From a virus (lineage: Duplodnaviria; Heunggongvirae; Uroviricota; Caudoviricetes), in IMG/VR virus record IMGVR_UViG_2654587570_000013, positions 1 to 35,061 of that record: DNA of 35,061 nt; one strand, 5' to 3'. Below the pieces are notes generated by a model. The model saw only the letters and a program-made list of their open reading frames with translations, ran no database searches and was not told the DNA's origin. Below are positions 1-23,558 of this stretch, piece after piece (the stretch's first letter is position 1; each line of letters starts with the position of its first letter). Both the position numbers and the translations under genes were made by a program.

Positions 1-387
1 ATGTTCAATATCATGATTCGTAAATTTGGCGAGATGACTTTCGAGAAAGCTGGTGTTGCGCGTACCGAAGAAGAAGCAATGGCCTTAGTTCTGGTAGCAC
101 TGAGATCATCACCTGAGATTATCGACGCTGAATATGTAGCCGCAGAAGGTGAGATTAAAGAGATTAAAGCAGTGGCTAAGGAATTAGGTGTTAAAGGTTT
201 CCGTAAGCTGAAACTATCCCGCGAGACTTATGTCATTGGACAGCAAGGACAATACCTAGATGAGAATAGCGCGATTGTCCTACTGAATAAGATCACCCGC
301 TATGGTTTCCAGATTGAGCAATATAAAACGTGTTTCGAATTATACGAAAAAGGTTTGCTGGATACTCTGACCATCGTTCGCGCTTAA
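1..387 (+). CDS. hypothetical protein (may be truncated at window edge)
   Basis: 128-aa ORF starting at window position 1; no motif recognised; followed by a hairpin plus T-run at 402-427. Confidence 0.4.
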   Translation: MFNIMIRKFGEMTFEKAGVARTEEEAMALVLVALRSSPEIIDAEYVAAEGEIKEIKAVAKELGVKGFRKLKLSRETYVIGQQGQYLDENSAIVLLNKITRYGFQIEQYKTCFELYEKGLLDTLTIVRA

Positions 388-961: not shown

Positions 962-998
962 GCCCCTATCGTTATAATACGCGGTAGGGGCGTTTTTG
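962..998 (+). terminator. putative rho-independent terminator
   Basis: GCCCCTA ... TAGGGGC stem followed by gttttt gttt. Confidence 0.5.
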
Positions 999-1010
999 TT
1001 TGGAAATGGT

Positions 1011-3762: not shown

Positions 3763-3808
3763 AGTAGTGAATCCTCAATAAAATAATATTCACTACTATT
3801 TATAAGAA

Positions 3809-4066
3809 TTAATTATTGTAGTTTTGGAAACCAGTAAGATCACAAAATGAATCAGTATCATGTGCAGGAGAACGATGCTCTGCTTCGTCAGAGAAAATGT
3901 TGGCTACCGGAGATTCCACTTTAACTTCCAGTGCTTCTTCAACATCTGACTTAACTTCTTCGACCACTGGTTCAACTGCTGGAGATTCTTCTTTTGTTTC
4001 TTCAATGACGATCTCAGGTTCTTTCATTGCTTCAACCAGAGACGGATCAACTTCGTCGAATACCAC
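3809..4066 (-). CDS. small highly acidic protein (unknown; DNA-mimic-like composition)
   Basis: 85 aa, about one third Asp/Glu; apparent GTG start. The overlapping plus-strand Ser/Thr-rich ORF (3897..4121) looks like its antisense shadow. Confidence 0.35.
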   Translation of the reverse strand: MVFDEVDPSLVEAMKEPEIVIEETKEESPAVEPVVEEVKSDVEEALEVKVESPVANIFSDEAEHRSPAHDTDSFCDLTGFQNYNN

Positions 4067-4146
4067 TTTATCATCTGCGGTATATTTGTCTATAATGAAA
4101 AATGGTCAGAAATATAGCTAACGTCGCCAGCATATTCTAACAAAAA

Positions 4147-4166
4147 AGCGCCCACTGGAGGCGCTT
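4147..4166 (-). terminator. putative terminator at end of the late operon
   Basis: GCGCC-cactgga-GGCGC hairpin; on the minus strand it is followed by a T-run, immediately after the endolysin gene. Confidence 0.45.
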
Positions 4167-4171
4167 TAATT

Positions 4172-4525
4172 TTATCCATTCCACCGTGATTTTTTTGATC
4201 TGGAATCAATATGCGTAAAGGTTTTATATTTTCCTAAGCCGTATTGAGTAGGATATTTCCCATCAAGATAAGCATGAACAATATCAGGCGAGACACCCTT
4301 GATAACAATGTCAGCCGCGCGGCCTCGAACATGATAGCTATTGGTTGCGCCGCCTACATTCTTGTTATGAGTCGGGCAACGGTTCCCACTGTTAATAATC
4401 ACTGGTTTACCGAAGTGCTCTCGTACATCCTCAAGAATCACCAGTAATTCAGCGTCGATTGTATCATAATCACATTTTCCGCATTTACATTTAAATTCCT
4501 TGCGAGAAAAATGCTTACTTAACAT
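4172..4525 (-). CDS. peptidase M15 family cell-wall hydrolase (probable endolysin)
   Basis: SGNRCPTHNKNVGGATNSYHVRGRAADI ... FTHID matches the zinc-binding H/D/H signature of M15 peptidases; 117 aa, no signal peptide; last gene of the late operon. Confidence 0.8.
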   Translation of the reverse strand: MLSKHFSRKEFKCKCGKCDYDTIDAELLVILEDVREHFGKPVIINSGNRCPTHNKNVGGATNSYHVRGRAADIVIKGVSPDIVHAYLDGKYPTQYGLGKYKTFTHIDSRSKKSRWNG

Positions 4526-4534
4526 ATTACCCCC

Positions 4535-4882
4535 TTAGATCATTTCGAAGATATAACCAATAAAGCGCATACCCTTGATATAATAAGGAGCAGTGCCTAC
4601 ACACACCGCGCGTGCATCACCCAGACAGTTAAAGCTATAAGGATTAACTACATCGACTTCTTGCCCTACACGAAAACGATATTTAGGACGTTTAGCCAAT
4701 GTAGCGACACAAAACACGGTCCCCTTTTCATGATCACGGATACATTCTTTATATTGTTTATGTTTAACTCTCTTCGCCTCAAAATCATAGGTCATAGATT
4801 CTGGGCTAATGCCATTAATAAAAATACCGGAAAGCTGATCAACCGGATAAGTAGGAAATTCAGTGAAAATATTTTTAGCCAT
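4535..4882 (-). CDS. hypothetical protein
   Basis: 115-aa ORF co-oriented and tightly packed in the operon; no recognisable motif. Confidence 0.5.
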   Translation of the reverse strand: MAKNIFTEFPTYPVDQLSGIFINGISPESMTYDFEAKRVKHKQYKECIRDHEKGTVFCVATLAKRPKYRFRVGQEVDVVNPYSFNCLGDARAVCVGTAPYYIKGMRFIGYIFEMI

Positions 4883-4920
4883 GTTATACCCCCATAAGAT
4901 TCTATGAGGGTATTTATTGA

Positions 4921-5604
4921 TTAAACGTATTTCATGCGCGATTTAATGTGCTTATTGATGTTTTCAAGCATCATTGCTTCGTTGCTTTCCCACGATCCTA
5001 GCGTCGAATAACGAGTAGAAATTTTATCCGACTTAACGGCAACAATTCGCTTACTCTGTTTCTGGATGCGTTTCTCTAAGCGACGTTTTGCCACCGCCGA
5101 TCCATTCTTAGCGCGTTTGGTTCGGGATTTCTTAGGCTTGTACTTCTTCATGATAAAAGTCCCTTCCTTGTTCTCTACCTTGATGAAGTTGCCGTTTTCG
5201 ATGTTACGCATCATCTTACCGCCTTTGATGGCCTTAATGTTCCCGTGGGAGTCTAAGACCTTACCGTTGGCGATTGGCACTAGCTTATTGATTTTGCCAC
5301 CATCGAAATAGTGTTTCAGATAGTCATCCTGACTGCCGATCTTCTTGTCCTTATCCCTTGCGCCCTTGATGAAGATTTGGTGTCTGGTCCCTGATCGGTT
5401 CTTGTAGTTGGTATTACCTACAGCTTGCTGAGTCCAGCGAGTAGGTCTATCAACATTCTTGTTAATCTTCTTCTGGAGTGCACGAGCAGCAAAGATCGCC
5501 CCTTCCCCTATCGCCCTTTCGAATGTATCGGTTGCTTTATCAGTCCATTGGCGTAACGCTTTCTTTGTCCTTAGAGCGTTTCGTTTATTGGTACTGGTTG
5601 CCAT
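4921..5604 (-). CDS. very basic Lys/Arg-rich protein of unknown function
   Basis: 227 aa with long K/R-rich stretches (possible nucleic-acid binding or virion internal protein); SD AGGGGG upstream. Confidence 0.5.
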   Translation of the reverse strand: MATSTNKRNALRTKKALRQWTDKATDTFERAIGEGAIFAARALQKKINKNVDRPTRWTQQAVGNTNYKNRSGTRHQIFIKGARDKDKKIGSQDDYLKHYFDGGKINKLVPIANGKVLDSHGNIKAIKGGKMMRNIENGNFIKVENKEGTFIMKKYKPKKSRTKRAKNGSAVAKRRLEKRIQKQSKRIVAVKSDKISTRYSTLGSWESNEAMMLENINKHIKSRMKYV

Positions 5605-5605
5605 G

Positions 5606-5776
5606 TTAGCCCCCTAATAACGAAAAGACCCCCGCCAGTGTCCTTAGCAATTGTTCATCCACGGTCATAGCCGGGAGTTCAAGCCCAAAGGACGTTAGCA
5701 GAGGTCTAATAGCTACGTTATAAGTGAGGGCGACAATCAAGAGATAACCAAAATATTTCTTAAGTTTATTCTTCAT
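5606..5776 (-). CDS. small membrane protein (56 aa), speculative
   Basis: Translation MKNKLKKYFGYLLIVALTYNVAIRPLL... has one transmembrane helix; its stop abuts the SD of the next gene. Below the ORF-track cutoff. Confidence 0.35.
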   Translation of the reverse strand: MKNKLKKYFGYLLIVALTYNVAIRPLLTSFGLELPAMTVDEQLLRTLAGVFSLLGG

Positions 5777-5794
5777 ATATTCACCCCTTTATTA

Positions 5795-6073
5795 TTATTT
5801 TTGTTTGAGTATGTCGAGAACTTGGTCAAATTTGGCGTCCATCGCAACCACTTTCTTCTCTATACCGTGTAGTGTTTGTTCCATTTGGTAAACACGTTCA
5901 GCAATCTGAGTATGGTTATTCTGCATCGTCTCAAACTTCTGGTTTAACAATGCGTCGCTGGATTCCAATTTCGACAATCTATTTTCTGTGGCTAATTGAT
6001 TTCGGTGAAGTCTCCAAAGCCCACCACAAATTAAGGCGATAACACCGATACCGCCATATATAATTTCAGTCAT
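5795..6073 (-). CDS. membrane-anchored coiled-coil protein (holin/spanin-like or exclusion protein, unassigned)
   Basis: 92 aa; N-terminal transmembrane segment GGIGVIALICGGLW followed by a heptad-like coiled coil; immediately downstream of the J-like gene. Confidence 0.5.
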   Translation of the reverse strand: MTEIIYGGIGVIALICGGLWRLHRNQLATENRLSKLESSDALLNQKFETMQNNHTQIAERVYQMEQTLHGIEKKVVAMDAKFDQVLDILKQK

Positions 6074-6127
6074 TACGCCCCCGATATTTTTATATAATTT
6101 AATGGCAGAATTATTTAGATAAAAATA

Positions 6128-6165
6128 ATCCCGCCTAACTCAAAAGAATTAAGCGGGATTAATTA
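6128..6165 (-). terminator. putative hairpin terminator after J-like gene
   Basis: ATCCCGC ... GCGGGAT stem with a long loop; T-rich on the minus strand. Confidence 0.35.
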
Positions 6166-6178
6166 TTAGAATTAAATT

Positions 6179-9100
6179 TTAAGAAACAGAAATACCAGTA
6201 GCGGCTTTCTTAGTTACCATTACCGTTAGATCGCTGATATATGCACTTGGGTTATAGTTGTTAACGCCCTTACAGTAAACTTCAAAAGTCATTGTTACTG
6301 CCCCGTGTCCGGCTGGCATGTCAATAACTCCACTGTACATACAGCCAGAAGTTGCAGTGCGATCATATAGAACACCACCATTTTTCTTAACGATTAGTCG
6401 GCAAGTATCCCAATGATCGCTACTTTCGCCACGACGAACAGACCCGTTATGATGAATCGCTGGAATCACTATTTGGCGATCGAATGGATGATCATCTTCG
6501 ACCCTTACAGTGATTGCACCATCAGGCCAGTTTGGTTGGCGATGCGGGAAACTCCTACCAACCACTTTCACGAAGTCACCACGCACCTGATTAGCATCAA
6601 GCATACCCAAAATGCGGCAACTTGAATTAATCGTTACGTTGTTCATTTCGCCGGAATCAGCCACCAAATGACCACGAATATTAGCGTGTCTAAAATGACA
6701 AGTGCCATCTTTGCCGATATACCATCCATCGTTACCATTCCAGTTATAAGACTGGATATAGTTACCAATTTTAGCATTATCGATAGAGCCATCAATGATA
6801 TGACCTGTTCCGATCTGTGCGTGTTGGATGTGAGCGCCGTTAATCTGGGCTGTGCCGATCTTAGCCGTGGTGATACTAGCATCACTAATCTGGGCTGTGC
6901 CAATTGCAGCATTACGAATCATCGCATTATCAAGATAAACTTTGTTATCTTCGATGCCAAACGGACAAACTTCTGATCCGTCTTGTGGAGCTACCGCGAT
7001 TTTATCAGCCGTAAAGATGATTCTTGTCGGTTCTGCCGGATCATTGGTTGCGCTCATATGAATACCAGCCACGCGACCATCTGCATTAACTGCCAGATTA
7101 TATTTGCTGTTAATGGTTCCCTTCAAAGCATCGATTTTTACATCTGCTTCCTGATTCACACCAGCAATCTTGCCATCCATTTCTACCCGAACTTGATCAA
7201 TCTTACTTGCGCTTGCTGCCTCACTGGTAGCAATTGCTTGTTTCAGGGTAGTAGCAGATGCGCTAACTTCTTTGGTGATATCGCCTTTCAGTTCAGCTTT
7301 AACCTGATCAATCTTAGTTGCGCTGGCTTGCTCACTGGTAGCAATCAGACTCTTGAGAGTATCGGCTGAGGCTTGGACCGTCTGCCCTGTCTCGGTAGTA
7401 ATCTGTTTATGCATTGCATCAATCTTAGCATCGGCATTAGCGCCAGCTTGAGCAATAGCATCCGCGATGGTTTCATCTAAGCGATCTTGTAAACCAATCA
7501 GGTCTTCCAGTGCTTCTTTGTCCTGATCGTCCCAGCTAATGGTAGATTTCATTTGCATGAAATACGGTTCAGACCAAACAGCATCATCCATACCGAAAAT
7601 ATCATAGTGAGCACCACGGATATAATAATCACCGTCAGCCAAATCAAAGGAAGTATGACTAACGCTATTGGTAGTCACTGCCCTTGCATCGGAGAAAGTA
7701 TTATCGGTTGCATACTGGATGATTGACCCTGCATAGTCATGTTCTACGTCATCCGCCCAGCTAACAAACGCAGTATTAAAGCCACCACGCGCACTAAAAC
7801 CTTTCATCGGCTTATGTTGTGGGTTGATAGCCACTAAACGCGCTGGGGCGCTCTCTGAGTTGTTATAGCCCTTGACTGATACTTCTACCGTCAATTCACG
7901 GGAAAGGCCGTTAAACTGGTTCATATCAAGCGTATAAGTCCATGATTCAGGATCGCGGGTACGGTACTGAATAGACTTACCAGCCTTGTTAGTCACCTTG
8001 ATAATGTATGCTTCAAACAGGTCACTAAACTTGTTAGCTTCACCGTTGATCATCACATCTAATTGTTGCTGATTTTCCCATTCGATAATCAGATCATTGC
8101 CTTCGAAAGTACCAGGTGAACTACCCTGATTTTTGATTCGAATAACCGGAGTCGGCAATTCATAGGTAACAGTAGGATTCTGGTTAACCAGTTCCACCCA
8201 TTCGGAACGAGCAATAATACCGAAAGCACAAACGCGGTAATCGTAGGAACGATCTTTAGCCAGTGCATTGATATTGAAAATTTGCTGTGAAGTCTGTCCC
8301 AGCTTAATCCAGTTAGGTGATCCACTCACTTTGTAATCAATCTGGAAACCGTAGCGGTTGAAATCTTCCGGTACATCCCATGTCAAAGTTACGTTTTTAC
8401 CGTGGATTGTCTCACCAGTTGCCTTAATTCTGAAATTAGTCGGTTTCTGTACTGTCATTGAATCCGGTAAACCAGTAGGTCTATTGTCTGGATTCGCCGC
8501 ATAGTTCAGGTCAGTATAAACCTGAGAATTATATTCTGTGGCGGTGATAGTCATCATCCCAGCAATACCAGAATCAATAGAGCGATCAATTGCAGTAATA
8601 CGCCAAAGTGAATTATTCAGTTTTAATTCATCATAGGTTACGCTAATAACATCCCAAACTTCGGCAGTGAATGCGTCAGTAGTCATAAAGCTGATAACCT
8701 GAGTGATACGAGATTTATTTCGTTCTACACTCGCTAGTTTATCAATCTGGGCTTTAGACTTAACAAAACGATATTCAATATCTTTAGCGATAATTCGACC
8801 ATCTTGACGAATAGTAGCATCGTTTTCAGCATCAGCCGGATAACGTAGCATTTGCTCTGAATAGTCAATTGATGGTTCTTGATACATCGCGTTAATGGTA
8901 TTGAAATAACCATTAGTGCCACCTGTTTTCAGTGATACTTTTCCCATCATGATATTGTCTTCATTGAAGGTATGCTTAACAATATCAGGAGCATCCAGTT
9001 TCAGAGTAATACGTCCAAAGGATTCGAACATCACCCCGCCGAAAGTCTGCATAAGACTGGTCAAGTTCTCTTTAAAGCTGGCGTTCGGATCACATGCACC

Positions 9101-9925
9101 GTTTGAATGCAAATCCATCTGGCGTACTTGTTTACGTACTTTCAGGAATGAATCAACGTTGATGTTTTCAATTGGTACGGATAAGCCATATTTTTCATTT
9201 GTTAGGTAGTGGAAAATCTGGTCCACGCCGTTAGTGCTTGCCTCAATAGCATTGGTTTCAAGGTTACGGATTTTTAAGCCCATAACATCGACCGCTACCT
9301 GGCTATTTGGTTGAAGGATATCAACACCAGCAGCCAAAGATTTGTCATCACGACGTAAAACAATACACATGGTCGCAATGCCGTTACCCTGATACCGATC
9401 ATCCCAATCAGCGCCCAAATGATGTTTAGCAAGATCTAATGCAGTGTTAGGATTTTTACCCGTGCGAAACTCGACTTCTAAAACTTTGCGGTATTCGTCT
9501 TTAATGTTTCCTTTATCGAGAATGCCATCACGAATTGTCATATTCTGGCTAATGAGAACGTTTTTATTATCGATGTGCAGTGCTTTAAAGTGATCGATCT
9601 CACCTTCGGCAATAGCAAAAATTTGTACCAGCTTGTTATTTTCACGCTGTGAAATTGCTTTGTAAACGCAGATTGCACCAGTTCGGGTAGTACCGAAAAG
9701 AACGGGTAAAACTGTCTTAGGATCGTTTGATGTTCCTAGTGTCACCGCATTATCTGGGCTTTGTACTTTCGGTGTTTTTGGTGCGCCTACAGTGGAAGCG
9801 ATCAAGGTCATTGCACCAGCAGCCATACCGATAGCGACTGCGGTCATAACAGAAAATGTTGCAGCAGCAGCCATCCCAGCAGACGCACCAGCAATAACCG
9901 CGCCTACTAATATTTCAAATCCCAT
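6179..9925 (-). CDS. central tail fibre / host specificity protein (lambda J-like) with I-like hydrophobic N-terminus
   Basis: 1248 aa; C-terminus (DDHPFDRQIVIPA ... IDMPAGHGAVT ... KKAATGISVS) closely resembles the lambda J receptor-binding end as I recall it; internal fibre-shaft repeats; N-terminal Gly/Ala-rich hydrophobic segment; start overlaps the upstream stop (TAATG). Confidence 0.85.
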   Translation of the reverse strand: MGFEILVGAVIAGASAGMAAAATFSVMTAVAIGMAAGAMTLIASTVGAPKTPKVQSPDNAVTLGTSNDPKTVLPVLFGTTRTGAICVYKAISQRENNKLVQIFAIAEGEIDHFKALHIDNKNVLISQNMTIRDGILDKGNIKDEYRKVLEVEFRTGKNPNTALDLAKHHLGADWDDRYQGNGIATMCIVLRRDDKSLAAGVDILQPNSQVAVDVMGLKIRNLETNAIEASTNGVDQIFHYLTNEKYGLSVPIENINVDSFLKVRKQVRQMDLHSNGACDPNASFKENLTSLMQTFGGVMFESFGRITLKLDAPDIVKHTFNEDNIMMGKVSLKTGGTNGYFNTINAMYQEPSIDYSEQMLRYPADAENDATIRQDGRIIAKDIEYRFVKSKAQIDKLASVERNKSRITQVISFMTTDAFTAEVWDVISVTYDELKLNNSLWRITAIDRSIDSGIAGMMTITATEYNSQVYTDLNYAANPDNRPTGLPDSMTVQKPTNFRIKATGETIHGKNVTLTWDVPEDFNRYGFQIDYKVSGSPNWIKLGQTSQQIFNINALAKDRSYDYRVCAFGIIARSEWVELVNQNPTVTYELPTPVIRIKNQGSSPGTFEGNDLIIEWENQQQLDVMINGEANKFSDLFEAYIIKVTNKAGKSIQYRTRDPESWTYTLDMNQFNGLSRELTVEVSVKGYNNSESAPARLVAINPQHKPMKGFSARGGFNTAFVSWADDVEHDYAGSIIQYATDNTFSDARAVTTNSVSHTSFDLADGDYYIRGAHYDIFGMDDAVWSEPYFMQMKSTISWDDQDKEALEDLIGLQDRLDETIADAIAQAGANADAKIDAMHKQITTETGQTVQASADTLKSLIATSEQASATKIDQVKAELKGDITKEVSASATTLKQAIATSEAASASKIDQVRVEMDGKIAGVNQEADVKIDALKGTINSKYNLAVNADGRVAGIHMSATNDPAEPTRIIFTADKIAVAPQDGSEVCPFGIEDNKVYLDNAMIRNAAIGTAQISDASITTAKIGTAQINGAHIQHAQIGTGHIIDGSIDNAKIGNYIQSYNWNGNDGWYIGKDGTCHFRHANIRGHLVADSGEMNNVTINSSCRILGMLDANQVRGDFVKVVGRSFPHRQPNWPDGAITVRVEDDHPFDRQIVIPAIHHNGSVRRGESSDHWDTCRLIVKKNGGVLYDRTATSGCMYSGVIDMPAGHGAVTMTFEVYCKGVNNYNPSAYISDLTVMVTKKAATGISVS

Positions 9926-14857: not shown

Positions 14858-15328
14858 TTAGACTTTCTGGAAAACAGCTTGTTTGACCGGAGCACCATCT
14901 ACTACAAAGGTGAAGGTACGGCCTACTACAGCATCCTCACCACCAGTCATGGTAGTTTTAGACAGGAAGCCGTTATAAGCGATATGTACACCAGATTTTT
15001 TCGTAGCATCGATGTAGTAAGCAATTTTAAGCTGTACGCGCTTACCGTCTTCGGTTGCTTTAATCAGTTTTTCGTGTACTTCGTTACCCGGCATGTAGTT
15101 GATCGAAAGTTCGATATCCGGTACAGACATACGACCAACCAGCTTACGGTTATACGGACCACCGAAGTTAGGAACATCGATAGTAGAACGTTCTACACCA
15201 GTTTCCGGGAAAGCCGCACATTCTGGAATTTCCAGATAGCTTTCACTGTCAAGATCGGTGTTAGTTACTTCTTCATGCAGAAACAGACCAACGAGGCCAC
15301 CAGAAAAAATATCAAATTTAGTAGTCAT
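14858..15328 (-). CDS. major tail tube protein (lambda V N-domain-like)
   Basis: 156 aa; INYMPGNEVHEKLIKATEDGKRVQLKIAY resembles the conserved lambda V segment as recalled (WMPGE...ALLAWFNEGD...YKIRF); very strong optimal-codon bias typical of an abundant structural protein; terminator hairpin downstream. Confidence 0.6.
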   Translation of the reverse strand: MTTKFDIFSGGLVGLFLHEEVTNTDLDSESYLEIPECAAFPETGVERSTIDVPNFGGPYNRKLVGRMSVPDIELSINYMPGNEVHEKLIKATEDGKRVQLKIAYYIDATKKSGVHIAYNGFLSKTTMTGGEDAVVGRTFTFVVDGAPVKQAVFQKV

Positions 15329-15382: not shown

Positions 15383-15685
15383 TTAGCGGTTGCTCAAACG
15401 TCTATAACGAAGATGAGCGATCCCCCTATTTGTGCTAACGGTAATTACCGCCCCTTGCGGTGCAATACAAGAATGAATCTGTCCCCAATCATGACCCTTA
15501 TGGCTTCCAGAAACACACAAACCATGAATAAGCAATTCAGAGTCACCACCGCCACCACCGGAAGAATGAGCACAGAATGAAATAGTCCCGAAAGCGTCGG
15601 CTGTCCAACCGTTAGGAATATCAAACCATCCCTGATTTGCTTTACCCGCCCTATTCCCCAAAGCGCCATCTACCCAAAATGCCAT
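15383..15685 (-). CDS. small Gly/Trp/His-rich protein, paralogue 1 of 3 (unknown function)
   Basis: 100 aa; shares WFDIPNGW, a Gly-rich segment, D-SEL--GL and a C-terminal aromatic-basic tail with the two adjacent ORFs. Confidence 0.55.
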   Translation of the reverse strand: MAFWVDGALGNRAGKANQGWFDIPNGWTADAFGTISFCAHSSGGGGGDSELLIHGLCVSGSHKGHDWGQIHSCIAPQGAVITVSTNRGIAHLRYRRLSNR

Positions 15686-15990
15686 TAGTGCATTCTCCTG
15701 AATTTAAAATAATGCAAGCTACCTTTACCCAATGTAAAGCTAACGGTAGCACCAGCGCCAACTAAAGAACTAGCGCCCCAACTCCCGGCATCAGCCGCAT
15801 GATGACCCGATTCAATCAATCCATTTACGACCAATTCAGAATCAAGATCACCAGCACCGTTAATGGCTTCCATATGAGCAAAAACAATTCCGCATGAATC
15901 AGTAACCCAGCCGTTGGGGATATCAAAATATCCACCATTAGCCCAAATACTAATAGCGTTTGACATTCTTTGATTTATCCATCCAGCCAT
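15685..15990 (-). CDS. small Gly/Trp/His-rich protein, paralogue 2 of 3
   Basis: 101 aa; YFDIPNGW motif; its stop overlaps the start of paralogue 1 (TAATG). Confidence 0.55.
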   Translation of the reverse strand: MAGWINQRMSNAISIWANGGYFDIPNGWVTDSCGIVFAHMEAINGAGDLDSELVVNGLIESGHHAADAGSWGASSLVGAGATVSFTLGKGSLHYFKFRRMH

Positions 15991-15992
15991 AA

Positions 15993-16289
15993 TTAAAACT
16001 CCATGAATTTAAAATATTCAACACCACCTTCACCCCCTAAACCAAAGGAGACGGTGCAGCCAGCAGGAACAAACGAATTTATAGTAGATCCCCAATTGGT
16101 CCCACCACGACGACGAGCAACGGTCAAACCATCTACGTTAATATGTGCATCAGACCACCCACCACCAGCATTATGACGCATTACAGCGACACCAGCACGA
16201 GCAGTACCATAGCCGTTAGGAATATCAAATACATGCCATTTTAAAGCATCGATTTTAGTATTAATTTCGCTACTTACCCAATATCCCAT
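15993..16289 (-). CDS. small Gly/Trp/His-rich protein, paralogue 3 of 3
   Basis: 98 aa; VFDIPNGY motif; 2-nt gap to paralogue 2. Confidence 0.55.
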   Translation of the reverse strand: MGYWVSSEINTKIDALKWHVFDIPNGYGTARAGVAVMRHNAGGGWSDAHINVDGLTVARRRGGTNWGSTINSFVPAGCTVSFGLGGEGGVEYFKFMEF

Positions 16290-16327
16290 ATAAGAATCCT
16301 TAGCGGAGATTTCTCCCCGCTTTCCAA

Positions 16328-19300
16328 TTACCCTAATTTAGCTTCAATTGCAGCAAGACGTTCACGAAGAAGTTTATTTTCTTCGCTCATTTCTTGGACC
16401 GCTTTAATTAAAAGCGCGTTCACTGCGGAGTTTGAAATTGTTAAAATTTCTTCTGGGTTATCAAAACCACCAATTTTTGCGGTTTTAACAGCTTCCGGTA
16501 ATACCTCTTGTAAATCCTGTGCGATAATACCAATCTCATGACCTATAACTTCTCGGTCATTAAGAGATTTAACTTTATCGTAGGTTTTAACTTTGAGTTT
16601 ATTTACCTTATCCACCGCATTTTCTTCGTAATCTTCAACATTAATTTTCAGACGACGATCGGAACGAATATAAACATCGTTAAAGTTACCATTACCAGGA
16701 CAGTAAAAAGTACCATCATGATGGAACTCGAATACAGCTTGAGGGTGACCAGCCGCTGGCGATGCCTCCGCAGATCCAACACGAATAATTGCTTGCCCCC
16801 AATTTTGAGGAACACGACGCATACCAAAATCGACGGCAGTTGTATACCCTTGATTGGTGATTAAACTTCTTCCTTTGATAATCGGATAATAACAGTCCGG
16901 TGAAACATAGCCATGATCGACAAATATTGGCGCTTCTAAGCCCCATTGATCACCCCAACCTCCAGATTGGCTAGCAGTCCAACGTTCACCATGAACATAG
17001 AATCGAACGTTATTGACATGAGTCATTTCGACACCTTTTGGACTTAGCGCGATATCCCCCGCGTTTGTAATATTGATAGCAGCATTAGTAGCATAGCTAT
17101 AGAACGCTAATCCATTATCAGCACCACCTTTACCGATATACCAGTTGTTATTATCAGCACAAGTACCCAACAAATATATCGACGAATCGCCCGTTTCGGC
17201 ATTCATGATGATTGCGTCAGAACCACGATTAACTTTAAGTTTCCCGAAGAAGGTGTTTTTAATGGTATTATCACCCAATCGTTCAAATTCGGCTAAAAAT
17301 CCTTTTGAGTCACGAAGGCTTAAAACGTTATTTCGACCTGTATTGCTTGCCCCCCAATGGACGAGTTCCATATAGTCCATAGATTGACGAGAACCAGCTT
17401 TAAAGAAAAGATTGTCCTCAAGACGAGTGCTACCATCAATTCCAAGATGCAAACAGCGTGCGGTCGCTGTGCCACCTAGATCTAATCCACCACCAGCAAA
17501 ATCATAACTAAATGGTCTACGGCTATTCCACCCACCGAAAGAATCACCGTGATCTGTGGAAAGAATATGGAAGCTAGTTCCATCATTACGGAACATCAAA
17601 CCATAATTACCACCTTTAACAGCCAAACGAGCATTTTCAGATAATGCAACTTCGCTATTCATTACAATTTTCTGGCCTTTACCACCAGTAATATGTAATT
17701 CACCATCTTCAATCAGGTTTATCGAGTTTTGACCGTTATCATTCCACCAAATAAAATCTTTGGTTGTTCCATCACCGAAGCCAAACCAGCCATTACGAAC
17801 ATCTTGTCCAGTGCGATAATCCATGAAATTAAAATGGCTTGATTCGTTTGGTCCTCGACGAATATCAATACCAGAATTTCCACCAACACCACCATCCAAT
17901 GTTAATCTCTTGACATGTAACCCGGTTGTTGCTGTCAGCAATAATTCCTGATTTGTATCTTCGTATCCAGTAGCAAGACGATATGCGTTATCATCAACTG
18001 TCTCATGCCAGATAGTGGCAGGAGCAGAACTACGGAAGCGACGCAACATTTTCTTAGCATTTGTTTGCTGTTCGTTCAAATGCTCAATGTCATATTGGCC
18101 TTGATGGTTTCCAGCAAAATTTAACGTTCCACGGTTGCTAAAGTTATTGAACGATGAAATGTTAAGAGCATCAAAAATTTCATCTGCAACAGGTTTTTCA
18201 CCGCCCAGGTATTCAGGAGTATCCAACAGGTTTAAAGAAACACCACCGGAAGAAACTTGATATTCTGCTAAAACAAATCCTGTATGTGCACCATAGTAAG
18301 CGTAAAGATCATAATTGTCGCCATCGGTTGGAATAGCGCAAAAATGTTGTTCATAATGCCAAATAGTATAATACGCATTGAATACAACACCTTTCGGGCT
18401 ATTGTTGCCGCATCGAATCACCAATTCGATAATATTGGCTTGTCCATTCATCCCGACGTTATAACCGTTACCACCAACTAAGCGGATCTTAGCACTACGA
18501 CCGTGTTGCTGTGGCATTGTCAAAGTGCCTAGTTTAAACCAACCACCCTCGATCCCAAAATTAAGCGTCTTCTGGAACAGTCGGTCAATTTCTGCTTTCG
18601 AATATGCGCCAATTTCGGCAGGAGTAGGTTTATCACCTTCATGATACATGCGGTGAGAATATGCCAAATGACCCAATTCATCATAGCCGTATGTTCTTAC
18701 CGTATGAACCGGATTAGACCCATAAGTGAACTCAAAGCCACGAGCATGATTAACACCAGATGGATGCGGAACATGCAAGATCATTGCAATATGACCCGCC
18801 AGGTCATTCATGCGGAATGCACCAAAGTAATCAAGATTACGCGCATTTGGATCATCAAAATAGTTTGCGGTCTTAGACAGCAAATAACCATCAGTATAAG
18901 TGTTTACGTGTTTTTTGATGTACTTGCCATCAGCAGATCCATCGGCTGCATCAATACGGCTTTCTAAGCGTGCCAATTCAGAATCAGTGTAAGACTTGTT
19001 ATTGTCAACTTTGCTATGAATTGCTGTATTTTTGGCTTCAACATCACGGGTTAATGCTGCGACGTTATCCGCTGCCTCTTGCTTATTGGCTGCAATCACA
19101 CCAGTAAGGTTATTGTAGGTGTCAGTTAACTGATTTTCCGCATAGACTTTATTTGCTGCGATAGTGCGGTCAGTTTCTGTCTTAATCAGATCAACTTTGT
19201 CATTGATTGCTTTGTCATTACTTGCGATTGTCGCGTCGGTACGGGATTTAATATCATCAACTTTTTTATTGATGCGGGTATCCAGTTCCTGGGTTGCTAC

Positions 19301-19738
19301 AGCAGCCGCATTTTTATTAGCGTTGATGGTATCCGACAATTCAGCTTTAACACCAGCAAGGTCGGAAGCAGCTTTATTTTTATTGGCCTCGATTGTCGCG
19401 TCGGTTTCGCGTTTAATTACATCAACTTTATTGTTAATTTCTGCGTGATTTGCTGCGATGGTTGCATCAGTAGTTTGTTTAATTTCATCTACTTTAGCGT
19501 GAATATTGCGGTCATTTACTGCAATTGTGCTATCCAGTTCTTGTTTGTTAGCATCAACTTTAGATTCTAGTGCCGCGTGAGTTTCAGGAGAAACAGAGAT
19601 TTGAACTACTTCATGATCTCGGTCTTTGGTAAAAATAACATGGTCTTTAAGGTTGATTGCTACCTCACCGACCTGTAATTGTTCCGGCGTTGGTTTTTTG
19701 CCAGAAACATTTGTTCGTTTAAATTGGATCGACTGCAT
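16328..19738 (-). CDS. tail fibre/tailspike with C-terminal intramolecular chaperone (peptidase S74-type) domain
   Basis: 1136 aa; N-terminal array of roughly 22-aa shaft repeats (KVDxIKxxTDATIxAN); C-terminal ~110 aa has the S-DxRxK autoproteolysis signature (YIRS/DRRLK) and a terminal coiled coil, as in T5 L-shaped fibre and K1F endosialidase chaperone domains. Confidence 0.85.
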   Translation of the reverse strand: MQSIQFKRTNVSGKKPTPEQLQVGEVAINLKDHVIFTKDRDHEVVQISVSPETHAALESKVDANKQELDSTIAVNDRNIHAKVDEIKQTTDATIAANHAEINNKVDVIKRETDATIEANKNKAASDLAGVKAELSDTINANKNAAAVATQELDTRINKKVDDIKSRTDATIASNDKAINDKVDLIKTETDRTIAANKVYAENQLTDTYNNLTGVIAANKQEAADNVAALTRDVEAKNTAIHSKVDNNKSYTDSELARLESRIDAADGSADGKYIKKHVNTYTDGYLLSKTANYFDDPNARNLDYFGAFRMNDLAGHIAMILHVPHPSGVNHARGFEFTYGSNPVHTVRTYGYDELGHLAYSHRMYHEGDKPTPAEIGAYSKAEIDRLFQKTLNFGIEGGWFKLGTLTMPQQHGRSAKIRLVGGNGYNVGMNGQANIIELVIRCGNNSPKGVVFNAYYTIWHYEQHFCAIPTDGDNYDLYAYYGAHTGFVLAEYQVSSGGVSLNLLDTPEYLGGEKPVADEIFDALNISSFNNFSNRGTLNFAGNHQGQYDIEHLNEQQTNAKKMLRRFRSSAPATIWHETVDDNAYRLATGYEDTNQELLLTATTGLHVKRLTLDGGVGGNSGIDIRRGPNESSHFNFMDYRTGQDVRNGWFGFGDGTTKDFIWWNDNGQNSINLIEDGELHITGGKGQKIVMNSEVALSENARLAVKGGNYGLMFRNDGTSFHILSTDHGDSFGGWNSRRPFSYDFAGGGLDLGGTATARCLHLGIDGSTRLEDNLFFKAGSRQSMDYMELVHWGASNTGRNNVLSLRDSKGFLAEFERLGDNTIKNTFFGKLKVNRGSDAIIMNAETGDSSIYLLGTCADNNNWYIGKGGADNGLAFYSYATNAAINITNAGDIALSPKGVEMTHVNNVRFYVHGERWTASQSGGWGDQWGLEAPIFVDHGYVSPDCYYPIIKGRSLITNQGYTTAVDFGMRRVPQNWGQAIIRVGSAEASPAAGHPQAVFEFHHDGTFYCPGNGNFNDVYIRSDRRLKINVEDYEENAVDKVNKLKVKTYDKVKSLNDREVIGHEIGIIAQDLQEVLPEAVKTAKIGGFDNPEEILTISNSAVNALLIKAVQEMSEENKLLRERLAAIEAKLG

Positions 19739-19767
19739 CGAATCACCTCACTATAAAACAGGAATAA

Positions 19768-19785
19768 GGGAGGCGTTAACCTCCC
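19768..19785 (-). terminator. hairpin (attenuator) between V-like gene and fibre gene
   Basis: GGGAGG-cgttaa-CCTCCC stem-loop; flanking sequence only moderately T-rich. Confidence 0.3.
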
Positions 19786-19811: not shown

Positions 19812-20645
19812 TCAGTATTCCCCGAAGTCGATCCGGTCATGGATAGAAACGGCTTCAATCTCGGCTGGTGTCGGTTTTTCTTCTGTGGAATACACTTTCA
19901 CCCATCCAGAATTACCGTCTTTCTGGACTGTGCGAACTCGTAAACGTGGTGCGCCGGAAGCGGTGCAAGTTAATTGCCATCCACCATCTTCATTAGGTTG
20001 AACGTGAATTAGTGAAGTATCAGCACTAAATGGATTAGATACGCTCGATCCCTGATAAGTTACGAAACGGTTTCCGGCTAATGCTTCGCTATCAATCGGA
20101 CCTATGAATGGGCTAACGCCTGAACCTACGCCATAATCCCCTTGTCGCAGAATTTTTCCCTCGGTCGCGATACCCCTTGCAAGAATCCCGCCATCTGGTT
20201 CAAGTTTAAATTCCAGTGTTACAGCTTTGTTATCTGCGCCACGGGTTTTATGTGATGTGACGTAAGCATCGAATATACAAAAGTACCCTGTGTTAGCAGC
20301 ACTATAGCCAGAGTTCACAACATAGAACATACGGAAGCGTAAAGGTGTTTTATCCTCTACCGCTTTCATCAACATTGCTTGATGTTCGTCATCCAGAACA
20401 CGGTTTAACGTGAGTGTTGTCGGTTCCAGTTTACGATAACCAGCAAGTTTCCCCGTAGCGTCCTGGTCATACTCTTCTAACGTCTGGATCTCTGTGGATT
20501 CGGTTATCGTCGGAAATGCTGCGATGTTCTCGATAGGACTAAAGCTAGGATCGAAAAAGTCCGGCTGGTTATCCACCATAGTAGACACGGAGACTTCAAC
20601 ATGCGACCCCGTGAAAATGTCTAAGTTATCTTGTGTAATATTCAT
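19812..20645 (-). CDS. tail tube-fold protein with C-terminal extra domain (lambda V-like major tail protein or tail terminator)
   Basis: 277 aa; TLTLNRVLDDEHQAMLMKAVEDKTPLRFRMF resembles the same V-like segment; C-terminal ~100 aa beta-rich domain carrying a KPTPAEI motif also present in the fibre. Confidence 0.5.
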   Translation of the reverse strand: MNITQDNLDIFTGSHVEVSVSTMVDNQPDFFDPSFSPIENIAAFPTITESTEIQTLEEYDQDATGKLAGYRKLEPTTLTLNRVLDDEHQAMLMKAVEDKTPLRFRMFYVVNSGYSAANTGYFCIFDAYVTSHKTRGADNKAVTLEFKLEPDGGILARGIATEGKILRQGDYGVGSGVSPFIGPIDSEALAGNRFVTYQGSSVSNPFSADTSLIHVQPNEDGGWQLTCTASGAPRLRVRTVQKDGNSGWVKVYSTEEKPTPAEIEAVSIHDRIDFGEY

Positions 20646-21545: not shown

Positions 21546-23558
21546 TCATTCAGCGGAGATGTGAAGAACTTTCAGAGCTTCCGGCTGAACTACGGTGAAG
21601 TCCAGGTCTACCCAGATACGCGGAACGATAGCAGACTGTGCGCGGTAAGTGGTGTCGTCCATATCCAGTTCCAGACCACCCCATTCACCGATCATGATAC
21701 CGGAGAAGTCACCCAGAACGATGTGGTCTGCCGGAATAACGCCAGAAGTAACTACATCGTAACCAGCCAGTTTGCCGTTTTCGATGATATAACCGGAAAC
21801 GCCGTTATCTTTCAGGGTAGATTCCAGTTCAGCAGCAGTTGCACCGCTCATTGCAAACTTGATGGACTGTGCCGGAACGCCAGCGTCGGTCAGTGCTGCA
21901 ATTTCTTTCAGGAAGTCTTTGTAAGAGAAAGCAGCTTTCTTAGTAACGCGACCACCGTCTACCAGTTGCTTAACCAAACCTTTCGGACCGCGAGTATTGT
22001 CTTTGTCAGACAGAATCAGTTGTTCCAGTTTGATGCGAACAGCTTTGTTAATATGATCAGTGATCAGGGTAGCAATATTCGGAACAGTTTTCAGAGACTG
22101 ACGGCTGATCGGGTTGCCACCAGCAAAAGTTTTCGGAGCCATTTTCACGTTTTCAAAGGTAGCCTTCGACTCGGGGGCACTTCCATTTTCGTCTACAAAA
22201 CCAAAGGCATCAACGCTGGAAGCAGTCATTTTCGGTACAGCGATCGGGCTATTCAGACCAGACAGGACGGTCACGCCCAGACGACCCAGACACGAAGCAG
22301 GAAGCAGCATTTCGATGTATGATTCAGTCAGCAGTTTTTCGTCAGTTACAGCGGTCAGAGTAGTTTTGGTGTTACCATCAGCAGCAGCACGCAGAGCAGC
22401 AGCCGGAACGAATACAGAGCCACCGCGAGCAGCACGACCACGCTGCATTGCAGCACCAGCAGCCATAGCGGAATATTCAGCTTCGTTAGCACCCAGAGCA
22501 GCACCATCTACCAGAGAGCGAATTACGTTGTTCAGGTCAAAAGTTTTTTCCATTTTAGAGTCCTTAATTTGTTGTTCGTTGTTACGTTGAGCAGTAGCGA
22601 TTTTATTTAGTGCCTTAGTGCGGAATGCTTCCGGCGTAATTTCTTTATTTGCCAATGCGCGTTTAAATTCTTCATCGTCTTCGTTAATATTTAGCTCGCG
22701 AGCGATCTCGCGAATTTCTAATTCGTCTTCTTCGGAACGTTCAGCCACTTCTTCGATTTTTTCTTCTTCAACCGGAGCGGCTTCACGTTCTTCTTTTACT
22801 TCTTCTGCTTCCCGAACAGTTGAACTATCATCATCAACACTTTCAGGATGTTCAGCGTCTTTTCCGTCTTCGAGATTTTCATTTTCTTTATTCTCTTCAA
22901 CTTGGCGCTCTTGAGTTTCTTCAACTTCCGGTTCTTTATTTTCTTCTACCGGAGTTTCTTCAACCTGAGCGGCTTCTTGTTCTTCTTTGATTTCTTCGAT
23001 TTGTTCTTTAGTCATATCGCGTTTAGCCTCCAAATTAACTGTGATAGTATTTAGAGAGCGATTTAAACCGACCGAATCATCAGCAGGAACGGTGACAAAT
23101 GAGAGTTCATAGGGCGCCCACTTAGTAACAATCAATTGCCCTTTGGCGTAATCGATGTGATATTCTTTAATGTCATAGCCGACAGAAATTTTTTCCATCG
23201 TACCTTCAATGACTTTATTGCGAATATCATTAGCCAAAGTGCCATGCTTAGAGAATTTAACCAGAGCACGACCTACGTTATCCGCATCGATTCGAGCGTC
23301 GCAGACTACACCTAAATGATTATCGAAATTATGATTGAACAGCAACGGAGCGTTATTATTCAGACGAGACAGATCAACCGCTTCCGGTGTATGTACCAGA
23401 ATTTCATCTAGTACCACCATCTCTTGATTTTGCTCATCCCAGAATTGGCGCTGATACGGCTGTTCACTGGAGAAAGCAATTTCAAATTCGTATTGATCGT
23501 TATGCCCTTCGTTAATAACTCCACCGTAACCGTTAAGATCGCGGCGAAATTTAAGCAT
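21546..23558 (-). CDS. prohead protease - acidic scaffold-like linker - HK97-fold major capsid protein (single ORF)
   Basis: 670 aa; N-terminal ~170 aa protease-like, central ~150 aa extremely acidic/coiled-coil, C-terminal ~330 aa Ala/Gly-rich capsid-like region; strong codon bias; internal ATG at 22553 has an AAGGA SD. Confidence 0.7.
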   Translation of the reverse strand: MLKFRRDLNGYGGVINEGHNDQYEFEIAFSSEQPYQRQFWDEQNQEMVVLDEILVHTPEAVDLSRLNNNAPLLFNHNFDNHLGVVCDARIDADNVGRALVKFSKHGTLANDIRNKVIEGTMEKISVGYDIKEYHIDYAKGQLIVTKWAPYELSFVTVPADDSVGLNRSLNTITVNLEAKRDMTKEQIEEIKEEQEAAQVEETPVEENKEPEVEETQERQVEENKENENLEDGKDAEHPESVDDDSSTVREAEEVKEEREAAPVEEEKIEEVAERSEEDELEIREIARELNINEDDEEFKRALANKEITPEAFRTKALNKIATAQRNNEQQIKDSKMEKTFDLNNVIRSLVDGAALGANEAEYSAMAAGAAMQRGRAARGGSVFVPAAALRAAADGNTKTTLTAVTDEKLLTESYIEMLLPASCLGRLGVTVLSGLNSPIAVPKMTASSVDAFGFVDENGSAPESKATFENVKMAPKTFAGGNPISRQSLKTVPNIATLITDHINKAVRIKLEQLILSDKDNTRGPKGLVKQLVDGGRVTKKAAFSYKDFLKEIAALTDAGVPAQSIKFAMSGATAAELESTLKDNGVSGYIIENGKLAGYDVVTSGVIPADHIVLGDFSGIMIGEWGGLELDMDDTTYRAQSAIVPRIWVDLDFTVVQPEALKVLHISAE

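What the first reader, a model, noticed from the sequence alone, without database searches (positions are those of the whole stretch)
16328..19738. Tail fibre with self-cleaving C-terminal chaperone and shaft repeats shared with the J-like protein
The C-terminal 110 aa carry the intramolecular-chaperone signature. The predicted cleavage is after the Ser encoded at 16661-16663 (YIRS/DRRLK, with Lys five residues downstream). The N-terminal shaft is built from about 22-aa repeats (KVDxIKxxTDATIxAN). Similar repeats (KIDQVKAEL...) occur in the middle of the J-like protein, which suggests shaft-module exchange between the two fibres. The central ~500 aa may be an enzymatic depolymerase or a receptor-binding domain.
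Basis: partly seen in the sequence, partly recalled or inferred. Interest (0 to 1): 0.45.

Follow-up and report, generated by a model that had tools for sequence, protein, structure and literature searches.

The report
T4-type tail fibre on a prophage
This gene encodes a tail fibre of an E. coli prophage that is an end-to-end relative of the T4-type long-tail-fibre protein gp37, with a self-cleaving C-terminal chaperone; most of it has recently been swapped with virulent T4-like phages, while the proposed repeat sharing with the J-like protein and the proposed enzyme domain are not supported.

Summary
The ORF (16328-19738, minus strand, 1136 aa) is real. Its last 111 aa are a Peptidase_S74 intramolecular chaperone (Pfam E 6.6e-15). 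By analogy with T5 pb1 the cut should fall before the Ser (R1025|S1026), not after it.

The 22-aa N-terminal repeats are real: five strong units in a Pro-free stretch of about 210 aa with 11/22-residue periodicity, most likely a coiled coil.

The J-like protein does not carry this repeat unit: a profile of the units finds none there, there is no DNA similarity, and J's period is 37 aa. The central region is not an enzyme. Residues 283-1136 are 86.5% identical (94% at DNA level over 2.2 kb) to gp37 of the virulent T4-like Krischvirus KFS-EC, and residues 1-51 match the gp37 N-terminus.

Residues about 800-1000 form a hypervariable tip with two alleles, each shared between prophages and Krischviruses. 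This is the likely receptor-binding part.

Two side leads: the upstream 277-aa protein is a tail-tube paralogue with a gp36-like C-terminal tail, a likely docking adaptor. Three downstream paralogues of about 100 aa have a predicted C1q/TNF-like fold and sit where gp38 sits in sister prophages.

The fibre is a new member of a known kind.

The parts
16328..19738 (-). Tail fibre gene, 1136 aa (125.1 kDa). It is a gp37 (long tail fibre distal subunit) homologue from end to end.
   Evidence: ORF list. PHROG 1699 'long tail fiber protein distal subunit', E 1.7e-129. tblastn: aa 283-1136 are 86.5% identical to KFS-EC gp37. Mass.
19586..19738 (-). N-terminal joint, aa 1-51 (MQSIQFKRT...GEVAINLKD...FTKD). 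It is homologous to the gp37 N-terminus and is the likely attachment end.
   Evidence: 41% identity to KFS-EC gp37 aa 4-54, E 6e-16. The first ~68 aa travel together with the upstream 277-aa gene in other E. coli prophages whose fibres are otherwise different (H92-H115).
18944..19573 (-). Repeat shaft, aa 56-265. Five strong 22-aa units (aa 59-202) and about four degenerate ones. Inferred alpha-helical hendecad coiled coil about 30 nm long.
   Evidence: Repeat positions. DNA repeats 4 x 49 nt. Unit HMM hits with E 1e-9 to 1e-10. Hydrophobic periodicities at 3.67, 5.5, 11.1 and 2.2 residues; 0 Pro and 2 Gly. Faint Apolipoprotein (11/22-mer) Pfam match. The segment is absent from Krischvirus gp37.
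17339..18892 (-). gp37-type shaft, aa 283-800, including a Gp34_trimer-like domain at aa 644-745 (17504-17809).
   Evidence: Pfam PF21446, E 1.2e-15. PDB sequence matches to T4 gp34 and Mu fibre protein S. Identity to KFS-EC gp37 is 54-98% in 50-aa windows.
16664..17338 (-). Distal tip, aa 801-1025. Its hypervariable core (about aa 800-1000) is the probable receptor-binding region.
   Evidence: Two alleles. The window, KFS-EC and ETEC4085 are 94-100% identical to each other but only 8-28% identical to ETEC1718, G37-3 and TO6, with conserved sequence on both sides. The AF2 model is of low confidence here.
16331..16663 (-). Intramolecular chaperone (Peptidase_S74), aa 1026-1136. Catalytic Ser1026 is at 16661-16663 and Lys1031 at 16646-16648. 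The predicted cut is R1025|S1026.
   Evidence: Pfam E 6.6e-15. Ser conserved in >=90% of 42 homologues; Asp1027 and Lys1031 invariant. AF2 pLDDT 84-93. Foldseek top hit is the MyRF ICA domain 7dc3, E 9e-5. S16 gp37 (6f45) E 1.2e-5 with SDRR[IL]K aligned. Cut position taken from PMC4690869.
19812..20645 (-). Upstream 277-aa protein. It is a tail-tube paralogue (aa 4-163) with a 114-aa extension ending in a gp36-like tail. Proposed docking adaptor for the fibre.
   Evidence: hhalign against the 156-aa tube protein: probability 98.5%, E 1.6e-15. PHROG 158. The last 28 aa are 46% identical to the last 28 aa of Krischvirus gp36, pairwise E 3e-5. Database-wide the match is only E 0.004-0.9.
15383..16289 (-). 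Three tandem paralogous genes (98, 101 and 100 aa) directly downstream of the fibre gene. Predicted C1q/TNF-like jelly roll. They are part of the exchanged cassette; function unknown.

Best explanation
The gene encodes a homotrimeric side fibre of a temperate, siphovirus-type E. coli prophage. The fibre is a complete homologue of the T4-type distal long-tail-fibre protein gp37.

Layout from N to C:
1. aa 1-51: a gp37-type N-terminal joint.
2. aa 56-265: an inserted Pro-free coiled-coil rod built from 22-aa (2 x 11) repeats.
3. aa 283-800: a beta-structured gp37 shaft.
4. aa about 800-1025: a hypervariable tip that binds the receptor.
5. aa 1026-1136: an S74 intramolecular chaperone.

Proposed mechanism: the chaperone nucleates trimer folding from the C-terminus. 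Once the trimer is correct, the Ser1026/Lys1031 dyad cuts the R1025|S1026 bond. This releases a 12.4-kDa fragment and unmasks the tip.

Shown here: domain identities, conservation of the dyad, the mosaic map and the repeats.
Inferred: trimer formation, the cleavage itself, the coiled-coil structure, and receptor binding by the tip.

The segment from aa 283 to the end, together with the three small downstream genes, is a cassette that has moved recently and repeatedly between this prophage family and virulent T4-like Krischviruses.
For: - Family assignments.
- 86.5% amino-acid and 94.3% nucleotide identity to KFS-EC gp37.
- N-terminal joint homology, E 6e-16.
- Mosaic map with two tip alleles, each shared by prophages and Krischviruses.
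- S/K conservation in 42 homologues.
- Confident chaperone model that matches the solved MyRF ICA domain.
- S16 gp37 chaperone aligned residue for residue at SDRRxK.
- In T5 pb1, cleavage at Thr1263|Ser1264 unmasks receptor binding: PMC4690869.
- Most T-even gp37 proteins carry such a self-cleaving domain: PMC9569957.
- Repeats and their periodicity.
- The window is a prophage inserted in hicB, with a serine recombinase and a non-contractile tail module (tube protein, tape measure, J-like tip).
- FDAARGOS_946-type relatives carry the same kind of fibre with no accessory gene, and KFS-EC keeps only a broken remnant of the small ORFs. Both are consistent with the fibre tip being able to bind a receptor without an accessory protein.
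Against: - No experiment here shows cleavage, trimerisation or receptor binding.
- The tip model has low confidence (pLDDT 38-65), so its fold and binding surface are unknown.
- Sister prophages with a 98-100% identical tip carry a gp38 adhesin gene downstream. In those, the tip may only be a docking platform.
- The three conserved small genes (dN/dS 0.1-0.3) may play that role here.
- The coiled-coil assignment rests on periodicity and composition only.
Confidence: 0.8

Rival explanations
1. The fibre is only a scaffold. After the chaperone leaves, the true adhesin is a separate protein that caps the tip. Here that would be one or all three of the small C1q/TNF-like proteins encoded at 15383-16289, filling the role gp38 plays in T2/S16-type fibres.
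For: - In most T-even phages a gp38 monomer binds the gp37 tip after the chaperone is removed (PMC9569957).
- Sister prophages ETEC4085 and TO6 have a genuine GP38 gene (Pfam E 4e-72) in exactly this position.
- The small genes always follow an S74 fibre and are under purifying selection.
- Their predicted fold resembles the distal knobs of many phage fibres.
Against: - KFS-EC is a plaque-forming phage with a 94-100% identical tip, yet it keeps only a chimeric, frameshifted remnant of the small genes.
- FDAARGOS_946-type prophages have no accessory gene at all.
- The small proteins show no sequence similarity to gp38. The window has no gp38 homologue.
Confidence: 0.2
2. One reading: the central ~500 aa are an enzymatic depolymerase, and the N-terminal repeats were exchanged with the J-like tail-tip protein.
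For: There is a weak local protein similarity between fibre aa 62-186 and J aa 800-935: 27% identity, E 9e-6. Its Smith-Waterman score of 104 exceeds the scores against other helical segments in the window (41-62).
Against: - No enzyme family was hit at E <= 1.
- The central part hits the Gp34_trimer domain and fibre PHROGs, and is 54-98% identical to a gp37 shaft.
- A unit HMM finds no hits in J; there is no nucleotide similarity; the periods are 37 aa and 22 aa.
- Homologues of the fibre's repeat module are found only in E. coli prophage fibres.
Confidence: 0.04
3. The gene is a decaying remnant in a defective prophage and makes no functional fibre.
For: In some relatives the fibre gene is interrupted by IS elements or nucleases (H64, H68, H71, H81).
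Against: - The reading frame in the window is intact, with the same start and end as its relatives.
- The catalytic residues are conserved.
- The window holds complete head, tail, lysis and integration modules.
- The family is present in about 60 of 5426 complete E. coli genomes with conserved synteny.
Confidence: 0.06

Closest known systems
gp37, long tail fibre distal subunit of Krischvirus (RB49-like T4-type phages), closest KFS-EC YP_010097272
   Same: aa 283-1136 are 86.5% identical. The N-terminal 51 aa are homologous. The C-terminal self-cleaving chaperone is the same. In G37-3 the same three small genes lie downstream.
   Different: The window's fibre carries a coiled-coil insertion of about 230 aa after the N-terminal joint. 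The host virus is a temperate siphovirus-type prophage with no gp34, gp35 or full gp36. Attachment therefore cannot be through a T4-type proximal half-fibre.
T5 L-shaped tail fibre pb1 and K1F endosialidase (solved S74 intramolecular chaperones)
   Same: A C-terminal chaperone of about 110-130 aa with a Ser-x4-Lys dyad. In those proteins cleavage is N-terminal to the Ser and unmasks the receptor-binding end (PMC4690869). T5 is also a siphovirus with side fibres.
   Different: No detectable sequence similarity outside the chaperone. The tip fold here is unknown. There is no endosialidase or other catalytic domain.
Salmonella phage S16 / T2-type gp37-gp38 tip complex (PDB 6F45)
   Same: Best solved sequence match to the chaperone (E 1.2e-5). 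Sister prophages ETEC4085 and TO6 use exactly this gp37 plus gp38 arrangement.
   Different: The window has no gp38. Three unrelated 100-aa proteins occupy its position.
Lambda side tail fibre Stf and other mosaic fibres of temperate phages (P2 H, Mu S)
   Same: A temperate-phage fibre whose distal part is homologous to T-even gp37 and is subject to horizontal exchange (general knowledge). Mu S is a PDB sequence match to aa 649-756.
   Different: Here nearly the whole of gp37 is shared, at up to 94% nucleotide identity. Folding relies on an intramolecular chaperone rather than on a Tfa/gp38-type separate chaperone.

Membership tests
Peptidase_S74 intramolecular chaperone (endosialidase CTD type) | Profile match above the curated threshold | tested here: met
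   PF13884: 55.6 bits against a cut-off of 22, E 6.6e-15, aa 1026-1085.
Peptidase_S74 intramolecular chaperone (endosialidase CTD type) | Catalytic Ser with Lys five residues downstream, conserved among homologues | tested here: met
   S1026 and K1031. Ser is conserved in >=90% and Lys is invariant in 42 homologues. Both align to SDRRIK of S16 gp37.
Peptidase_S74 intramolecular chaperone (endosialidase CTD type) | Chaperone fold (helices, hairpins and a terminal coiled-coil helix) at the extreme C-terminus of a fibre | tested here: met
   AF2 pLDDT 84-93 for aa about 1029-1136, ending in a 33-residue helix. Foldseek: MyRF ICA 7dc3, E 9e-5, TM 0.66.
Peptidase_S74 intramolecular chaperone (endosialidase CTD type) | Autoproteolytic release after trimer folding | not testable with these tools
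   Needs expression of the wild-type protein and of S1026A and K1031A mutants.
T4-type gp37 (long tail fibre distal subunit) | Homology along the length of gp37, including the N-terminal joint | tested here: met
   aa 283-1136 are 86.5% identical to KFS-EC gp37. aa 1-51 match with E 6e-16. PHROG 1699.
T4-type gp37 (long tail fibre distal subunit) | Part of a gp34-gp35-gp36-gp37 long tail fibre on a contractile tail | tested here: not met
   tblastn finds no gp34 or gp35 in the window, and gp36 hits only a short motif. The tail module is of the non-contractile type. The protein is therefore a sequence homologue but not a functional equivalent within a T4-type fibre.
Tailspike or fibre depolymerase | A recognisable catalytic domain (pectate-lyase-like beta-helix, sialidase, hydrolase) | tested here: not met
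   No such Pfam family at E <= 1, no such PHROG, no such PDB sequence match.
Shared shaft-repeat module with the J-like protein | The same repeat unit present in both proteins | tested here: not met
   The unit HMM finds five hits in the fibre and none in J. blastn best E is 0.4. J's period is 37 aa.
gp38-dependent (T2/S16-type) fibre tip | A gp38 adhesin gene next to the fibre gene | tested here: not met
   No tblastn hit of a GP38 protein in the window. GP38 is present in sister prophages.

The most novel reading that the evidence does not exclude
A siphovirus-type prophage mounts a T4-type distal half-fibre on its tail through a dedicated paralogue of the tail-tube protein. The C-terminal extension of that paralogue mimics the gp36 end that binds the gp37 N-terminus. 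After the chaperone is shed, the fibre tip is capped by three stand-alone C1q/TNF-like knob proteins, possibly as a heterotrimer, which take the place of gp38. On this reading the whole tip cassette circulates between temperate siphoviruses and virulent T4-like myoviruses.
Probability: 0.2. Interest if true: 0.65.

Novelty: new member of a known kind. Interest (0 to 1): 0.4.

Why it matters
The fibre itself is an ordinary member of the gp37/S74 class. The locus is still useful in three ways.
- It shows host-range cassettes (fibre shaft, tip, chaperone and accessory genes) moving at up to 94% nucleotide identity between a temperate siphovirus-type prophage family and virulent T4-like phages that are used as biocontrol candidates. 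This bears on predicting and engineering host range, and on how therapeutic phages may acquire new specificities from prophages.
- It provides natural 'swap' series: two tip alleles combined with three accessory-gene states (none, gp38, three small genes) on one conserved scaffold. These could be used to ask what the accessory proteins do.
- It suggests a way in which a T4-type fibre can be docked onto a non-contractile tail.

Tried and rejected
- Tandem Repeats Finder found nothing relevant in the fibre gene. The repeats are too diverged at DNA level and were recovered with the repeat finder and at protein level instead.
- NCBIfam gave no family for the fibre, the small ORFs, the adaptor or the gp38-like protein.
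- Pfam and PHROGs gave nothing for the three small ORFs.
- The AF2 monomer model of the tip (aa about 880-1000) was too uncertain to interpret.
- I considered that chaperone type dictates the downstream gene. Among seven fibres it looked so. However, a Salmonella relative combines the 'gp38-type' chaperone tail with small ORFs, so physical linkage is the simpler explanation.
- The adaptor's gp36-like tail is significant only in the pairwise comparison. Database-wide it reaches E 0.004-0.9, although most hits are fibre proteins. I keep it as a hypothesis.
- The review PMC5899708 on T4 fibre domains is not held.
- Direct BLASTP of the adaptor against the tube protein found nothing. Only the profile-profile comparison showed the paralogy.
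Full report
**The observation**

The ORF at 16328-19738 on the minus strand exists and encodes 1136 aa. The peptide YIRSDRRLK is present.

The motif KVDxIKxxTDxTIxxN occurs at aa 82, 104, 159 and 181, with a fifth, more diverged unit at aa 59. At DNA level these units appear as four 49-nt copies spaced 66, 165 and 66 nt. The two repeat blocks align with a Smith-Waterman score of 145, against 37 +/- 7 for shuffled sequence. The sequence features are therefore real and well beyond chance.

**The C-terminal chaperone**

- Pfam places Peptidase_S74 at aa 1026-1085: E 6.6e-15, 55.6 bits against a curated cut-off of 22.
- In an alignment of 42 homologues of aa 780-1136, the Ser is conserved in at least 90%, and Asp1027 and Lys1031 are invariant.
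- An AlphaFold2 model built on that alignment is confident for the chaperone (pLDDT 84-93) and ends in a long helix.
- Its best structural match among solved structures is the MyRF intramolecular-chaperone autocleavage domain 7dc3 (E 9e-5, TM 0.66).
- The best solved sequence match is the chaperone of Salmonella phage S16 gp37 (6f45, E 1.2e-5), with SDRR[IL]K aligned residue for residue.

One correction is needed. In T5 pb1 the cleaved bond is Thr1263-Ser1264, and the Ser leaves with the chaperone. The same was seen for the K1F endosialidase (PMC4690869). By homology the cut here should be R1025|S1026. That gives a 112.8-kDa mature fibre and a 111-aa, 12.4-kDa fragment. Cleavage itself cannot be tested with these tools.

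**What the rest of the protein is**

The central region is not an enzyme. No catalytic family appears in Pfam even at E <= 1. What is found is a Gp34_trimer domain at aa 644-745 (E 1.2e-15) and a weak gp37_trimer match. PHROGs assign the protein to 'long tail fiber protein distal subunit' (E 1.7e-129). PDB sequence matches are to T4 gp34 and the Mu fibre protein S.

The decisive result is that aa 283-1136 are 86.5% identical to gp37 of Escherichia virus KFS-EC, a 165-kb virulent T4-like phage of the genus Krischvirus. The nucleotide identity is 94.3% over window 16022-18217. The first 51 aa are also homologous to the gp37 N-terminus (41% identity, E 6e-16).

The fibre is thus a gp37 homologue from end to end. 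About 230 aa have been inserted between the N-terminal joint and the shaft, and the insertion is the repeat region.

**The repeat region**

Residues 56-265 contain no proline and only two glycines. Their hydrophobicity has periodicities of 3.67, 5.5, 11.1 and 2.2 residues, all harmonics of an 11/22-residue repeat. Pfam also gives a faint match to the 11/22-mer Apolipoprotein family. I infer a hendecad-type trimeric coiled coil about 30 nm long.

Homologues of this module are found only in tail-fibre proteins of E. coli. Some are only about 40% identical and use different repeat sequences in the same layout.

**The claimed link to the J-like protein**

The J-like protein (6179-9925) has its own repeats at aa 834, 871, 908 and 930, spaced 37, 37 and 22 aa.

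- An HMM built from the five fibre units recovers all five in the fibre (E about 1e-9 to 1e-10) and nothing in J, even with all filters off.
- blastn with 7-nt words finds nothing better than E 0.4.
- A weak local protein similarity does exist: 27% identity over about 140 aa, E between 9e-6 and 3e-3 depending on the set-up. It scores higher than comparisons with other helical segments of the window (104 against 41-62).

I read this as two Ala/Thr/Lys/Asp-rich helical rods, perhaps distantly related. It is not evidence of module exchange.

**Where the real exchange is**

The window is an E. coli prophage inserted in hicB, with a large serine recombinase at 996-2690. Relatives occur in about 60 of 5426 complete E. 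coli genomes. Its tail module is of the non-contractile type.

A 50-aa sliding comparison of eight fibres gives a clear mosaic:

| Segment | Pattern |
|---|---|
| aa 1-265 | Specific to the prophage family; at least 88% identical among the prophages compared. |
| aa 283-800 | gp37 shaft, shared with Krischviruses. |
| aa about 800-1000 | Two alleles. The window, KFS-EC and prophage ETEC4085 are 94-100% identical to each other. They are 8-28% identical to prophages ETEC1718 and TO6 and to Krischvirus G37-3. ETEC1718 is about 88-92% identical to each of TO6 and G37-3 over the first three-quarters of the segment. |
| aa 1001-1136 | The chaperone, which again shuffles independently. |

Each tip allele is present in both prophages and virulent phages, so exchange has happened more than once. 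A hypervariable block flanked by conserved sequence at the distal end of a fibre is the usual signature of the receptor-binding part. That assignment is an inference.

**Surroundings: the downstream genes**

Three paralogous genes of 98, 101 and 100 aa follow the fibre at 15383-16289. They are 25-41% identical to each other and share an FDIPNG[WY] motif. They have no Pfam, PHROG or NCBIfam match.

- They are 97-100% identical to three genes that follow gp37 in Krischvirus G37-3.
- The family has only 18 representatives among 1.84 billion protein clusters.
- They evolve under purifying selection (dN/dS 0.10-0.30).
- They follow an S74 fibre in every place looked at, including a Salmonella relative with two copies.

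In sister prophages the same position holds a genuine gp38 adhesin gene (Pfam GP38, E 4e-72) or holds nothing. Most T-even gp37 proteins shed their chaperone and are then capped by gp38 (PMC9569957). The small proteins could therefore be an alternative cap.

Against this, KFS-EC has the same tip but keeps only a chimeric, frameshifted remnant of them. I treat the cap idea as a minority hypothesis.

**Surroundings: the upstream gene**

The 277-aa protein encoded at 19812-20645 aligns over aa 4-163 with the whole 156-aa tail-tube protein (hhalign probability 98.5%, E 1.6e-15). Its last 28 residues resemble the last 28 residues of Krischvirus gp36, and both end in IDFGx[YF] (46% identity, pairwise E 3e-5).

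In T4, trimeric gp36 binds the N-terminal region of gp37 (PMC3004832). This gene and the first ~68 aa of the fibre travel together in many prophages whose fibres are otherwise different.

I therefore propose that a tube-protein paralogue presents a gp36-like end to which the fibre docks. The tail similarity is short and is not significant database-wide (E 0.004-0.9), so this step is suggestive only.

**Comparison with what is known, and verdict**

S74 chaperones on fibres, gp37-like fibres in temperate phages, and horizontal exchange of fibre modules are all established. PGAP already names this protein 'tail fiber domain-containing protein'. The fibre is a new member of a known kind.

The cut position was off by one residue. 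The J-like link and the enzyme suggestion were wrong.

The points worth following up lie beside the original finding:
- the very recent traffic of cassettes with virulent Krischviruses;
- the possible tube-paralogue adaptor;
- the three C1q-like small proteins in the gp38 position.

Noticed in passing
window 15383-16289 (-): Three tandem paralogous genes of about 100 aa sharing an FDIPNG[WY] motif. They have no family assignment and a predicted C1q/TNF-like jelly-roll fold. They are 97-100% identical to three ORFs downstream of gp37 in Krischvirus G37-3, and sit where sister prophages carry gp38. The family has only 18 cluster representatives in 1.84 billion proteins.
   Followed up: partly
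window 19812-20645 (-): A 277-aa protein. Residues 4-163 are a paralogue of the 156-aa tail-tube protein encoded at 14858-15328 (hhalign E 1.6e-15). The C-terminal 28 aa resemble the C-terminus of Krischvirus gp36. It may be the docking adaptor for the fibre.
   Followed up: partly
window 19768-19785 (-), between the 277-aa gene and the fibre gene: A terminator-like hairpin, GGGAGGTTAACGCCTCCC followed by a T-rich tail, overlapped by a promoter-like site (19750-19779). This may indicate separate transcription of the fibre cassette. It is a consensus match only.
   Followed up: no
window 996-2690 (+) and the window ends; L001: The window appears to be essentially a whole prophage of about 35 kb. 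In strain ETEC1718 the related prophage splits the hicB antitoxin gene and encodes a large serine recombinase. Its G+C content is about 42%, well below that of E. coli. No close relative was found among deposited phage genomes outside the fibre cassette.
   Followed up: partly
L002 9598-10085 (KFS-EC): The single ORF after gp37 in KFS-EC is a fusion of small ORF1 (aa 1-92) to the middle of small ORF3, followed by a frameshift. This looks like a deletion by recombination between the paralogues.
   Followed up: yes
L008 (PQ671644.1, Escherichia phage DCP80) 1-23000: This record is classified as a T4-like Gaprivervirus but begins with about 23 kb of a siphovirus-type module syntenic with this prophage: capsid 44% identical, a 698-aa protein whose N-terminal part is homologous to the 277-aa protein, a fibre, then the tube protein. 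It may be a chimeric assembly.
   Followed up: partly
window 7094-7426 (-), J-like protein aa 834-944: The J-like tip protein has its own internal repeats (KIDxxK..., spaced 37, 37 and 22 aa) just upstream of its Phage_Tail_Tip and Ig_GpJ_C domains.
   Followed up: partly
window 21546-23558 (-): The 670-aa capsid gene is a protease-capsid fusion. Homologues carry Peptidase_S78 plus Phage_capsid, and there is an acidic low-complexity linker in the middle.
   Followed up: no
relatives H64, H68, H71, H81, H82 and L009: In several related prophages the fibre region is interrupted by IS elements (IS421, IS3/IS2, IS903B) or carries an inserted GIY-YIG nuclease gene.
   Followed up: no
L010 (Salmonella enterica GCA_013591785.1) 2866-6616: A Salmonella member of the same prophage family has a shorter, 1029-aa S74 fibre followed by only two small paralogues. 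Its chaperone ends like those that accompany gp38 in the E. coli relatives.
   Followed up: partly
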